From Bacilli bacterium (GTDB lineage Bacteria; Bacillota_I; Bacilli_A; RF39; UBA660): a stretch of DNA of 64,000 nucleotides. Numbering within the stretch: the first letter of the stretch is position 1; each line of letters starts with the position of its first letter. Shown here piece after piece: positions 42,001 through 45,000 of the stretch. The stretch is taken from positions 10,103-74,102 of the forward strand of contig JAFRIS010000038.1 of assembly GCA_017432665.1 (NCBI GenBank), read 5' to 3'. The position numbers are program-made.

Positions 42001-45000
42001 TAATACTTGAAAGACGTCCCGTACGAGTTAATGTTTGTGTGTATGTAGTATGAATTCTACCATCTTCTCTTATTTCATTAAGTAATCCTACTGCATAATT
42101 AGAATATAACTTGGCTAACATACGATACTCTAGTATTTTATCTACGATAGGATTTACAAAACTAATTTTATCTAAAATATCTTTACTAGTAGAATACTTA
42201 CCATTAGTAACTCTTTTCGGATATGGTATCTCCATATCTACAAATAGTACTTGCGCAAGTTGAGCTGGACTATTAATATTAAATTCTTGACCAGCTAATT
42301 TATATATTTCTTGTTCCAAGTCTTTAATTTTACTATCTAGCTCATCTCTTACATTTTCTAAATATTTATGATCTACTTTAATACCAGTAATCTCCATATC
42401 AGCAAGTACACTAACTAATGGCATTTCAATTTTATTAAATAAATCTTCTTCATCATATTCACTAATCTTATCCAGTAATTCTTCTCTAGTTTCATAAATA
42501 AACTTTGCTTTTGAAATAACTACATTCTTTAATTTATCCTCTGTAACTTCTAATGGTCTTTTTAAGGTTCCATAGACACTTTCAAAACTAGGTATATCAT
42601 AACCCATATTATTAGCTAAATTACTAATATCATCTTTTATTTCATAATCACATAAGTATCCAGCAACAGCTGTATCAAATAAACAATTATTTATTTCAAT
42701 ATCATAATTATGTAATAAAACAATACACTTTTTTAAATCATAAGTATATTTATTACTCTTGCTTGTAAATAATTTTTTATATTTTTCTATTTCTTTTTCT
42801 TTTAAGAAATAACCATATTGCCCATCATAGAAACTTATTCCTAGGATTTCACTTTTACTATAAACTTCTCCCTTACTTTCAATATAGAAGGCATAATCTT
42901 TAGAAGAATCTAATTCAGTTATATCTTTTATTTCTAAGTCTTTTACTTCTTTAACTATATTATTGTCTGTGACAACTCCTATTAAATTATATTTGATTAA
43001 AAGAGACTTAAATTCTAATTCTTCTAGAATACTTTTTAATTTTAAATTATCAATACCTGTATATTTACAGTCCTCTAGACTAAATCCTAGTTTTATATCT
43101 TTAACTATAGTAGCTAATTGATATGATTTATAACAGTTATCTTTATCATTAATTAATTTTTCTTGAAGTTTTCCTTTAATGGAATCAATATTTTCATAAA
43201 TACCATCAATACTGCCATATTCAGTTATTAATTTTAAAGCTGTTTTTTCACCAACTCCAGCTACTCCCGGAATGTTATCTGATGGATCTCCCATTAGTGC
43301 TTTTAAATCTATCATTTTAATTGGTTCTATTCCATAAGTTTCAATAAATTTATCTCTATTCATCATGATATAGTCATTGCTTTTTAACATTCTAACTACT
43401 ACATCATCTTCTATTAATTGTAGTAAATCTTTATCACTACTAATAATTTCACAATCAAATTCTGGATCAATATGAGCCAAACTAGATAATGTACCTATAA
43501 TATCATCCGCTTCATAATAATCCATTTCATGGTATTTAATACCCATTGCTTTTAATACTTCTTTAGCAACTGGGAATTGCTGTTTTAATTCATCGGGTGT
43601 ATCACTTCTACCTGCTTTATATTCTGTATATTCTTCATGTCTAAAAGTCTTTCCTTTATCAAAAGCAACTAATACATAAGTAGGCTTTTCTTCTCTAATA
43701 ATTCTATTCATCATATTAATAAAACCATATAAAGCATTAGTAGGAAAGCCCTTAGAATTACGCATGATAACTCCGCTATAAGCAGTTGCATAATAACTTC
43801 TAAATACTAAATTATTCCCATCTACTAATAAGATTTTTTTCATAACATTCACCAATATTAGTATAACAAAAAAAATAATGATTTAAAATCATTATTTCTT
43901 CTTGATTACTTCTAGTATCTATGAAAGAAGAGAGTTAAAGTAAATAGAAGTAATCAAAGCATCTCCTCCACCAGATATAAAATATCTGGATTTTTTAGAA
44001 TTAATTATTTGGATAATTTTACTGAAGTGTTTGTCTCAGTGTAAGAGTCGTTGTCTAATTTTTCCACTCTATAACTTACAAATAATAAGTATAAGCAGAA
44101 TAAAGCATATATCCCTACAATAATTAATCCTGTTCTTAAACGTTCTGACATAAACTCTCTCTCCTTTCATATTACACTTCGATTATATACCGAATATTTG
44201 TTCGTGTCAATAAAATATAAAACATTTGTTTGACATTTTACACTTAGTGTGTTAAACTACATATATAAGGAGTGATACTATGGAAAAGTTAACTGATAAA
44301 CAAAGTAGCATTTTACAGATACTTAAAAAACTAATTGCGGATAAAGGTTACCCACCTACTGTTAGAGAGATTGGTGATGCAGCACATTTATCTTCACCAG
44401 CTACTATTCACTTTCATTTAAGTAAGCTTGAAGAAAAAGGTTATATCAAAAAAGGAGACAATAAAAATAGGACTATTGAAATATTAGTTCCTAATGAATA
44501 TTTAGAAAAAGATGAAAATGTTGTGGAAGTACCATTACTTGGAAAAGTAACGGCTGGTTCTCCTATTGAAGCAATAGAAACTCCTGATGAATACTTTTCA
44601 TTACCTGTAGAGATTGTTAATAATCATAAAGAAATATTTACTTTAAAAGTAAGCGGTGAATCTATGATTAATGTAGGTATCTATGATGGAGATATATTAA
44701 TTGTAGAAAGACAAAATACAGCTCGTAATGGTGAAACAGTAGTAGCTATGAATGATAATAATGAAGTTACTGTAAAGACATTTTATAAAGAAGATGGTTA
44801 TTTTAGACTACAACCTGAAAATGATACTATGGAGCCAATCATTTTAAAAGAATGTATAATTCTTGGAAAAGCAATTGGTTTATATAGAAAATTTTAATAA
44901 AAAAGTGTTAAGAATTTCTTAACACTTTTTATTTACAACTTTTTCCAGTCCATTTATTTGGTTCATATACTACTCCAAAGAATAACATTTCTTTAGTTTT

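What the first reader, a model, noticed from the sequence alone, without database searches (positions are those of the whole stretch)
44005..44210. Unannotated 48-aa membrane peptide driven by a perfect promoter with a LexA box in its spacer, divergent from lexA
On the minus strand the sequence reads TTGACA-cgaacaaatattcggta-TATAAT. This is a consensus -35 and -10 with a 17-nt spacer that is itself a Gram-positive SOS box (CGAAC-N4-GTTCG, one mismatch). About 24 nt downstream lie AAAGGAG, a 9-nt spacer and ATG, opening a 48-codon ORF: MSERLRTGLIIVGIYALFCLYLLFVSYRVEKLDNDSYTETNTSVKLSK. It encodes one TM helix and a short polar tail.
From established knowledge. Firmicute SOS cell-division inhibitors are small single-TM proteins encoded divergently from lexA (B. 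subtilis YneA, S. aureus SosA). E. coli carries an SOS-induced small hydrophobic toxin (TisB).
Inference. This is a LexA-repressed effector, either a YneA/SosA-type division inhibitor without a LysM domain or a TisB-like toxin. It is too short for the ORF track and likely for most annotation pipelines.
Basis: partly seen in the sequence, partly recalled or inferred. Interest (0 to 1): 0.65.

Follow-up and report, generated by a model that had tools for sequence, protein, structure and literature searches.

The report
LexA-controlled 48-aa membrane protein gene
Next to the SOS repressor gene lexA, this uncultured gut bacterium carries a real, conserved gene for a 48-residue membrane protein whose very strong promoter is blocked by a LexA binding site; it is most likely this lineage's own DNA-damage-induced brake on cell division, a known kind of system in a new and very small form.

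Summary
The only exact TTGACA-17-TATAAT match in the 64 kb is at 44210..44182 (-). A Firmicute LexA box (44204..44191) fills the first 14 spacer bases. AAAGGAG and an ATG follow, opening a 48-codon ORF (44151..44005) divergent from lexA.

It is a real gene. A 42-64 aa single-TM ORF sits at the same place in 65 of 80 related lexA loci (59 of 78 by a strict test, against 0.15% of shuffles). All 65 keep TTGACA, a LexA box at spacer position 0±1 and a near-consensus -10. Tyr15 is invariant; R28 and L32 are nearly so. dN/dS is about 0.2-0.4. Predicted topology is N-in/C-out.

No Pfam, NCBIfam or PHROG family matches. There is no LysM domain and no detectable similarity to SosA; similarity to YneA is TM-only and inconclusive. 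The exact protein is already in NCBI nr, and close homologues are named "hypothetical protein", so it is uncharacterised rather than unannotated.

The best reading is an SOS-induced YneA/SosA-type division inhibitor; the window also encodes murG, murB, divIB, ftsA and ftsZ. A TisB-like toxin is less likely: no antisense gene was found, and most relatives have no room for one. Function is inferred, not shown. It is a new member of a known kind, of moderate interest.

The parts
44005..44151 (-). Gene for a 48-aa bitopic membrane protein. The N-terminus MSERLR is predicted cytoplasmic and the TM spans about residues 7-25. A juxtamembrane R28-V-E-K-L32-D motif and a polar roughly 20-aa tail are predicted to lie outside.
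   Evidence: ORF. Positional homologues occur in 65 of 80 lexA loci. Alignments A1 and A2 show Y15 invariant and R28/L32 at 90% or more. dN/dS is 0.18-0.4. AF2 gives one helix over residues 3-46, with pLDDT 85/97/92 for residues 1-30. The positive-inside rule holds in 43 of 44 members.
44161..44167 (-). Shine-Dalgarno sequence AAAGGAG, 9 nt upstream of the ATG.
   Evidence: Read directly from the sequence. A purine-rich SD-like motif (AAGG, GAGG or GGAG) was found 5-20 nt upstream of the start in the relatives.
44182..44210 (-). Promoter of the peptide gene: TTGACA, a 17-nt spacer, TATAAT (12/12). The predicted transcription start is near 44175.
   Evidence: the only exact match in the window. 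All 65 relatives score 10-12 of 12, and the -35 is TTGACA in 62 of 65 (TTGACT in three).
44191..44204 (.). LexA operator 1 (CGAACAAATATTCG). It abuts the -35 and fills spacer positions 1-14, so bound LexA would occlude RNA polymerase.
   Evidence: 18.96 bits, the top hit in the window. The position is conserved at spacer offset 0±1 in all 65 relatives.
44219..44232 (.). LexA operator 2 (AAAACATTTGTTTG on +). It is weaker and overlaps the -35 of the lexA promoter, giving lexA autoregulation.
   Evidence: Second-best weight-matrix hit in the window, 13.06 bits. A box about 50 nt from the lexA ATG recurs in relatives.
44230..44258 (+). lexA promoter: TTGACA, 17-nt spacer, TAAACT with an upstream TG. 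It lies back-to-back with the peptide promoter.
44280..44897 (+). lexA, the SOS repressor (205 aa).
   Evidence: TIGR00498 at 1e-65; PF01726 and PF00717.
43868..44004 (-). 3' UTR module of three hairpins: 43971-43989, then 43904-43955, then an AT-rich terminator stem with T8 at 43868-43901. It ends the peptide transcript before polA and is specific to the window's sub-clade.
   Evidence: Alignment. The consensus fold has 35 pairs, 5 of them with compensatory changes. The module is unique in the window and occurs only in L006, L022 and L081-L085.
43860..43868 (-). Extended -10 (TGTTATACT) of polA's own promoter, directly after the terminator. polA (41231..43855, probable ATG at 43843) follows.
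   Evidence: The same TGnTATA(C/A)T element lies between the peptide stop and polA in most relatives.

Best explanation
This is the SOS cell-division checkpoint gene of an uncultured, low-GC (28%) gut lineage of Bacilli.

In undamaged cells, LexA binds the operator that fills the spacer of a consensus sigma-A promoter and keeps the gene off. The same intergenic region carries a weaker operator on lexA's own promoter. After DNA damage, RecA-stimulated LexA self-cleavage frees the promoter. A short monocistronic mRNA of about 300 nt is then made at high level, with a roughly 23-nt leader, a strong SD and a terminator at about 43868.

The 48-aa product inserts N-in/C-out. Its TM helix carries the invariant Tyr15, and its membrane-proximal R-x-E-x-L-(D/E) segment faces outwards. 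These are proposed to bind a late divisome component, such as FtsW-PBP or DivIB/FtsL/DivIC, and to stall septal wall synthesis until repair is done. Regulated proteolysis of the exposed tail may then remove the protein.

Shown here: the gene, its conservation, the promoter-operator architecture, the predicted topology, and a divisome and peptidoglycan pathway in the same genome. Inferred: LexA binding, damage induction, division inhibition, the target and the turnover.
For: (1) The position is divergent from lexA. The literature gives this as the hallmark of Gram-positive SOS division inhibitors (YneA, SosA, ChiZ, DivS), which otherwise 'show little homology', have one TM and have an extracellular C-terminus (PMC6851548).

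(2) The ORF, the TTGACA, the LexA box at spacer position 0±1 and the -10 are conserved together in 65 of 80 relatives whose LexA is 63-85% identical. The strict test gives 59 of 78 loci against 0.15% of shuffles.

(3) In L020, L026 and L028 the ORF and its LexA promoter are missing together, while polA keeps its own promoter. The operator therefore serves the peptide.

(4) Selection acts on the protein. dN/dS is 0.18-0.4. Y15 inside the TM is invariant, and R28 and L32 just outside it are nearly so. This parallels SosA's 'highly conserved sequence just C-terminally of the TM' and YneA's TM-mediated binding to FtsW TM7 (PMC13396833).

(5) The predicted topology matches that computed for SosA and YneA.

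(6) Neighbourhood: relative L083 has tkt, sirA (yneE), UPF0154 (yneF), lexA and then the divergent peptide. From my own knowledge, the B. subtilis lexA/yneA region holds the same neighbours.

(7) Potential targets exist. murG, murB, a POTRA/DivIB-like gene, ftsA, ftsZ and a Mur ligase lie at 29005-36670.

(8) The family behaves as a chromosomal, stand-alone gene. There are 197 representatives at 50% identity, nearly all 40-84 aa, and no phage or PHROG hits.
Against: No functional data exist. The organism is uncultured, and the RNA evidence is only unstranded contigs from related strains.

There is no sequence homology to SosA (hhalign probability below 6%). Similarity to YneA is TM-only and inconclusive (59% local, 22% global).

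The protein lacks a LysM domain. The 2026 YneA study found LysM binding to peptidoglycan essential for inhibition, so a 20-aa tail would need a different inhibitory step.

The operator's right half-site is imperfect here (ATTCG) and in many relatives (GTATG or GTACG). LexA's specificity in this clade is assumed from the Firmicute consensus.
Confidence: 0.6

Rival explanations
1. It is an SOS-induced membrane toxin of the TisB/DinQ type. The peptide would oligomerise in the membrane, dissipate the proton-motive force and drive damaged cells into dormancy. It would act either without an antitoxin or, in the window's sub-clade, with a cis-antisense RNA encoded in the 3' UTR module.
For: The peptide is small, very hydrophobic and LexA-controlled, as TisB is. 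Hairpin 1 (43971-43989) followed by ATTTTTT reads as an intrinsic terminator on the + strand, that is, antisense to the 3' UTR. The + strand between hairpins 2 and 1 carries a CUCCUCCACC anti-SD-like stretch.
Against: No sigma-70-type promoter was found on the + strand between 43856 and 43970. In most relatives polA starts only 30-65 nt after the stop codon, leaving no room for an antitoxin gene. The 5' UTR is short and its SD is exposed, whereas type I toxin mRNAs usually sequester theirs (my own knowledge). No member reaches the curated threshold of any Pfam family; the only sub-threshold hits (best E 0.005) are unrelated membrane-protein families. The gene is syntenic and vertically inherited beside lexA, with no phage hits. 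The conserved extracellular motif points to a specific partner rather than a pore.
Confidence: 0.15
2. It is a LexA-controlled small membrane protein with a different SOS role. Examples would be modulating a wall hydrolase, a transporter or a membrane protease, or anchoring a repair factor.
For: The gene, its regulation and its topology are well supported, but nothing ties the protein directly to the divisome. It has no homology to any characterised inhibitor.
Against: Every characterised lexA-divergent single-TM gene in Gram-positives is a division inhibitor. The architecture matches that class.
Confidence: 0.2
3. The ORF is chiefly a leader or upstream ORF of an SOS-inducible polA-mutM operon. 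On this view the promoter serves polA and the peptide itself has no role.
For: In most relatives the ORF stops 30-65 nt before polA and no terminator intervenes. SOS read-through into polA is therefore plausible there.
Against: Conservation is at the amino-acid level: the TM, Y15, R28, L32 and dN/dS below 1. polA keeps its own conserved extended -10 promoter. In the window a three-hairpin terminator module separates the two genes. Where the ORF is lost, the LexA promoter is lost with it and polA remains.
Confidence: 0.04

Closest known systems
SosA (Staphylococcus aureus SOS-induced division inhibitor, 77 aa; PMC6851548)
   Same: It is encoded divergently from lexA under a LexA box. It has a single N-terminal TM and an N-in/C-out topology (both predicted). 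It has no LysM domain. Its strongest conservation lies just outside the TM. Its tail is polar and ends in a short stretch of alternating hydrophobic residues.
   Different: There is no detectable sequence relationship (hhalign probability 0.2-5.7%). The present protein is shorter, with a median of 51 aa against 77 and an outside segment of about 24 aa against about 47. SosA's EQTYEMTDH motif is absent. SosA's division inhibition and its CtpA-dependent control are experimentally supported (PMC6851548); nothing has been shown here.
YneA (Bacillus subtilis / Listeria; TM + LysM, about 105 aa; PMC13396833)
   Same: It holds the same position opposite lexA and has the same predicted topology. The N-terminal basic stretch and TM align weakly (hhalign local probability 59% over 31 columns). 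In L083 the neighbourhood with tkt, sirA and yneF is retained.
   Different: No LysM domain is present in any of 89 members, and none of the 197 library representatives is long enough to hold one, apart from a single 1053-aa repetitive hit. YneA needs LysM binding to peptidoglycan to inhibit division, so the inhibitory step cannot be the same. Common ancestry is neither shown nor excluded.
SidA (Caulobacter crescentus, 29-aa SOS-induced inner-membrane inhibitor of late division proteins; cited in PMC6851548)
   Same: It is a very small, LexA-controlled, membrane-embedded protein with no extra domain that acts on late division proteins. It shows that a peptide of this size can be sufficient.
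   Different: It comes from an unrelated lineage and was not compared by sequence here. From my own knowledge, it is not encoded next to lexA.
TisB (E. coli LexA-controlled type I toxin, 29 aa)
   Same: It is a LexA-repressed small hydrophobic membrane peptide.
   Different: TisB depends on the IstR-1 antitoxin RNA and on a structured, translationally inactive primary transcript (my own knowledge). No counterpart of either was found here.

Membership tests
Gram-positive SOS small-membrane division inhibitors encoded beside lexA (functional class: YneA, SosA, ChiZ, DivS) | The gene is divergently transcribed from lexA. | tested here: met
   There are 128 nt between the two start codons. The arrangement is the same in 65 of 80 relatives.
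Gram-positive SOS small-membrane division inhibitors encoded beside lexA (functional class: YneA, SosA, ChiZ, DivS) | A LexA operator lies in the promoter, and transcription is induced by DNA damage. | tested here: inconclusive
   The operator sequence is present and phylogenetically fixed inside the spacer. LexA binding and damage induction cannot be tested with these tools.
Gram-positive SOS small-membrane division inhibitors encoded beside lexA (functional class: YneA, SosA, ChiZ, DivS) | The protein has a single TM segment and an extracellular C-terminus. | tested here: met
   By prediction only. The hydropathy window spans residues 7-25. AF2 gives a single helix. The positive-inside rule holds in 43 of 44 members.
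Gram-positive SOS small-membrane division inhibitors encoded beside lexA (functional class: YneA, SosA, ChiZ, DivS) | Overproduction blocks cell division. | not testable with these tools
   This needs expression in a host. The window does show that divisome and peptidoglycan genes are present.
YneA sequence family | A C-terminal LysM peptidoglycan-binding domain. | tested here: not met
   No PF01476 hit in the window protein or in any of 89 family members. Family members are 40-84 aa.
YneA sequence family | Detectable sequence homology to YneA. | tested here: inconclusive
   hhalign of A1 against 57 YneA sequences taken from Bacillus and Listeria lexA loci. Local probability is 59% over the N-terminus and TM only; global probability is 22%.
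SosA sequence family | Sequence homology to SosA, including the conserved EQTYEMTDH juxtamembrane motif. | tested here: not met
   hhalign probability is 0.2-5.7% against 16 staphylococcal SosA sequences taken from lexA loci.
Type I toxin-antitoxin (TisB/IstR-like or Firmicute 3'-overlapping type) | An antisense or divergent antitoxin RNA gene is associated with the toxin gene. | tested here: not met
   No + strand promoter was found in 43856-43970 and there is no Rfam hit. In most relatives only 30-65 nt separate the stop codon from polA. A + strand terminator-like hairpin exists in the window's sub-clade only. A weak or non-sigma-70 promoter is therefore not excluded.
Type I toxin-antitoxin (TisB/IstR-like or Firmicute 3'-overlapping type) | Membership of a known toxin peptide family. 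| tested here: not met
   No Pfam family reaches threshold in any of 89 members. No NCBIfam hit for the window protein, and no PHROG hit in any of the 44 members of A1.

The most novel reading that the evidence does not exclude
The peptide may not be a division inhibitor. It could instead be an antitoxin-free, LexA-gated membrane-depolarising toxin, fixed beside lexA across a whole lineage of gut Bacilli. That would make it a Gram-positive counterpart of TisB that links DNA damage directly to dormancy. In the window's sub-clade, the three-hairpin 3' module, whose + strand reads as hairpin, CUCCUCC, then terminator, would encode a newly acquired cis-antisense regulator.
Probability: 0.12. Interest if true: 0.6.

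Novelty: new member of a known kind. Interest (0 to 1): 0.4.

Why it matters
SOS-induced small membrane inhibitors of division are known from a few cultured model Gram-positives, and each lineage has its own unrelated protein. This finding adds a sequence-novel family from an uncultured, small-genome gut lineage. The family has 197 representatives at 50% identity and no Pfam or NCBIfam model.

It is the shortest Gram-positive example, at about 45-50 aa with only about 20 residues outside the membrane. If the function holds, a TM helix plus a short juxtamembrane motif is enough to arrest the divisome without a peptidoglycan-binding domain. That bears on the current model in which YneA needs its LysM domain. 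It would also offer a minimal natural probe, or inhibitor template, for the FtsW/PBP machinery.

The fixed promoter-operator design also gives a clean SOS reporter for these uncultured bacteria. The finding would not overturn anything: a specialist would expect a gene of this kind at this position.

Tried and rejected
- **Peptide as a genome query.** Searching genome contigs with the 48-aa peptide alone found nothing. It is too short for the tblastn confirmation step. Using LexA as the anchor worked.
- **Rfam.** The scan of 43000-45000 gave only a sub-threshold U6atac hit. I took this as chance.
- **RNA evidence.** Gut metatranscriptome runs hold contigs over 43902-44265. They are 90-95% alike, unstranded, possibly DNA-contaminated, and extend past the predicted start. 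They are not usable as evidence of a transcript or of induction.
- **Antisense or type I idea.** No + strand promoter was found, and relatives have no room for an antitoxin gene. I kept this as a low-probability rival.
- **3' UTR module as a repeated or mobile element.** The module is unique in the window and occurs only at this locus in the sub-clade.
- **Short ORFs in the 3' UTR after GGAGGAG.** They are not conserved, because indels break them.
- **Third-best LexA matrix hit, 20562-20575.** It lies inside a 1187-aa ORF and scores below the shuffle mean, so I rejected it as an operator.
- **SosA homology.** Rejected.
- **YneA homology.** Left open. The idea that the tail's alternating strand corresponds to the first LysM strand rests only on a 22%-probability global alignment.
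- **Phage origin.** No hits.
- **Structure comparison.** AF2 gives a single helix. I judged a fold search pointless for one helix and did not run it.
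Full report
**What is in the sequence.** On the minus strand the region reads as follows:
- -35 TTGACA at 44210-44205;
- CGAACAAATATTCG at 44204-44191;
- gta, then -10 TATAAT at 44187-44182;
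- 14 nt, then AAAGGAG at 44167-44161;
- 9 nt, then ATG at 44151;
- a 48-codon ORF ending with TAA at 44007-44005.

Everything else is exact. On the opposite strand, 128 nt away, lexA starts at 44280 (TIGR00498 at 1e-65). Its own promoter is TTGACA-17-TAAACT at 44230-44258.

**Is it more than chance?** This is the only 12/12 promoter match in the 64 kb. It is also the only LexA-box match with at most one mismatch, against 0.15 expected. I built a weight matrix from the boxes of 63 related genomes, leaving the window out. The two best hits in the window both fall in this 128-nt intergenic region. One is 44191-44204, at 18.96 bits, above the maximum of 17.67 in 50 shuffles. The other is 44219-44232, at 13.06 bits, overlapping the lexA -35.

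**Where the window comes from.** The window is 28% GC. The nearest LexA proteins, 63-85% identical, are all in MAGs labelled uncultured Bacilli, Erysipelotrichaceae, 'Tenericutes' or Mycoplasmatota, from ruminant, rabbit, chicken and human gut. DNA runs that hold the sequence are mostly bovine and other gut metagenomes.

**The ORF is a real gene.**
- I anchored on LexA and read the divergent strand in 80 related loci. A 37-64 aa ATG-started ORF with an SD and one hydrophobic segment turned up in 64 loci, mostly starting about 110-195 nt from the lexA ATG. Sixty-two of these are 42-64 aa; the L050 (37 aa) and L077 (39 aa) calls were left out of the alignments. L057 has a GTG-start version.
- A strict version of the test is met by 59 of 78 loci, against 6 of 3900 shuffles.
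- Forty-four sequences align with Tyr15 invariant and with R28 and L32 at 90% or more. The same holds for 89 database sequences.
- A more distant group, from loci with LexA 63-70% identical, has a different motif. It aligns to the first group over its full length with 86% hhalign probability.
- Against the closest relatives (L081, L083, L085), dN/dS is 0.18-0.4. The counts are small.
- The database searches found 94 clusters at 90% identity (word-indexed search) and 197 representatives of 50%-identity clusters (exhaustive search). Nearly all are 40-84 aa, and none carries a Pfam domain or a functional name.
- The exact window protein is already in NCBI nr and ENA. A 93%-identical one is MBR2678688.1, 'hypothetical protein'. 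The gene is therefore uncharacterised, not unannotated.

**Regulation.** In all 65 loci the promoter scores 10-12 of 12. The -35 is TTGACA in 62 of them and TTGACT in three. The LexA box starts at spacer position 0±1. An operator held at that position across this divergence is a phylogenetic footprint. LexA bound there would exclude RNA polymerase. The consensus promoter implies very high expression once LexA is cleaved.

In L020, L026 and L028 the ORF and this promoter are missing together, and lexA faces polA directly. The operator therefore belongs to the peptide, and the gene is dispensable in some lineages. LexA binding and damage induction remain inferences.

**Downstream context.** In most relatives polA begins 30-65 nt after the stop codon. 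That gap holds a conserved extended -10 (TGnTATACT or TATAAT) and an AGGTGA RBS, but no terminator. polA thus has its own promoter, and SOS read-through from the peptide promoter probably adds to it.

The window's sub-clade (window, L006, L022, L081-L085) instead has an inserted module of about 110 nt with three hairpins. The last hairpin is an AT-rich stem followed by T8. Five pairs show compensatory changes. The module is unique in the window and has no Rfam match. Here the transcript should be monocistronic and about 300 nt long.

**The protein.** The hydrophobic window is residues 7-25. AF2 with the 89-sequence alignment gives one continuous helix over residues 3-46. It is very confident through residue 30 (pLDDT 85/97/92 per ten residues) and poor in the tail (64/48). 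The N-flank is basic (family mean +2.5) and the segment after the TM is acidic (-1.2). This predicts N-in/C-out in 43 of 44 members, as also computed for SosA and YneA. The tail is polar and commonly ends in an alternating hydrophobic stretch followed by K or R.

**Comparison with known systems.** The SosA paper states that Gram-positive SOS division inhibitors are encoded next to lexA. It also says they have one TM and an extracellular C-terminus, and share little homology. SosA has no LysM domain, and its strongest conservation lies just outside the TM (PMC6851548). The 2026 YneA study shows that the YneA TM binds TM7 of FtsW, and that LysM binding to peptidoglycan is needed for inhibition. 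Its AF3 models suggest that other SOS inhibitors also target FtsW (PMC13396833).

I took real YneA sequences from 57 Bacillus and Listeria lexA loci, and SosA sequences from 16 staphylococcal loci. Profile comparison gave three results:
- against SosA, probability 0.2-5.7%, so no relationship;
- against YneA, 59% local over the N-terminus and TM only, and 22% global, so inconclusive;
- no LysM domain, type I toxin family or DivIC-like family in any of 89 members, and no PHROG or phage hits.

In relative L083 the neighbours are tkt, sirA (yneE), UPF0154 (yneF), an unnamed ORF, ThiF, then lexA and the divergent peptide, followed by polA, mutM and pyk. From my own knowledge, the first three are also neighbours of lexA/yneA in B. 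subtilis. This fits an old, vertically inherited locus.

**Can the proposed mechanism operate here?** The window itself encodes murG (TIGR01133 at 8e-96), murB, a POTRA/FtsQ-type protein, ftsA, ftsZ and a Mur ligase at 29005-36670. The organism is therefore walled and divides with a conventional divisome, despite the 'Tenericutes' labels on related MAGs.

**Verdict on mechanism.** The best-supported reading (0.6) is an SOS-induced, LexA-repressed bitopic membrane protein that arrests septation. It would be the functional counterpart of YneA and SosA, but a separate sequence family and the smallest Gram-positive example.

The invariant intramembrane Tyr and the fixed juxtamembrane motif argue for a specific protein partner rather than a generic anchor or pore. 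Because there is no LysM domain, the inhibitory step must differ from YneA's.

A TisB-like depolarising toxin (0.15) is not excluded. It is weakened by the lack of any antitoxin gene, of room for one in most relatives, and of translational masking. The only point in its favour is that hairpin 1 reads as a + strand terminator in the window's sub-clade. An unrelated SOS membrane function (0.2) cannot be excluded without experiments. A mere polA leader (0.04) is contradicted by the amino-acid-level conservation and by the joint loss of ORF and promoter.

**Novelty and interest.** This is a new member of a known kind. The position and architecture are what a specialist would predict. The family itself is undescribed: no Pfam or NCBIfam model matches, and no paper turned up in two searches. 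Interest is moderate (0.4). Its main value is as a minimal natural divisome inhibitor candidate and as an SOS marker for an uncultured gut lineage.

Noticed in passing
window 43868-44004 (-): A conserved three-hairpin module lies in the 3' UTR between the peptide gene and polA. It occurs only in the window's sub-clade. Five base pairs show compensatory changes, and an invariant GGUGGAGGAG sits between hairpins 1 and 2. Hairpin 1 (43971-43989), with its flanking A/T runs, reads as an intrinsic terminator on the + strand, although no + strand gene or promoter is evident. There is no Rfam match.
   Followed up: partly
L001-L050 (gap between peptide stop and polA); window 43860-43868: polA carries a conserved extended -10 promoter (TGnTATACT or TATAAT) immediately after the peptide stop codon, with no terminator in most relatives. 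SOS-induced read-through into polA-mutM is therefore likely there. In the window a terminator module blocks it.
   Followed up: partly
L020, L026, L028 (upstream of lexA): The peptide gene and its LexA-box promoter are absent as a unit, and lexA faces polA directly. This is lineage-specific loss of the putative checkpoint gene.
   Followed up: partly
L069, L071, L072, L080 (between the LexA-box promoter and the peptide ORF): An extra ORF of about 62 aa (MEYYTINDIQILTGY...) is inserted as the first gene of the LexA-controlled transcript. Its only Pfam signal is a weak winged-helix (Rok-like) match at E 0.007.
   Followed up: partly
window 44929-46194 (-): A 421-aa serpin (PF00079 at 7e-76) with a hydrophobic N-terminal segment lies directly downstream of lexA, on the opposite strand and convergent with it. 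In relative L083 that position is occupied directly by the ThiF/TcdA-like gene, so the serpin looks like an insertion.
   Followed up: no
window 20325-23888 (-): A 1187-aa protein has a type IV prepilin N-terminal methylation motif (PF07963) followed by many thrombospondin type-1 repeats (PF19028 at 1.9e-27, five stretches). It lies just upstream of mraZ-rsmH. This combination is unusual for a bacterium.
   Followed up: partly
window 29005-36670 (-): Part of a division and cell-wall cluster: murG, murB, a POTRA/DivIB-like gene, ftsA and ftsZ, then an arginase-family gene on the + strand and a Mur ligase. This shows a walled organism with a standard divisome, although related MAGs are labelled Tenericutes or Mycoplasmatota.
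   Followed up: partly
L083 1-3900: The neighbourhood tkt, sirA (yneE), UPF0154 (yneF), an unnamed ORF, ThiF and lexA resembles, from my own knowledge, the B. subtilis lexA-yneA-tkt-yneE-yneF region. In the window these neighbours are not adjacent to lexA; the serpin, ThiF and an unknown 282-aa ORF lie there instead.
   Followed up: no
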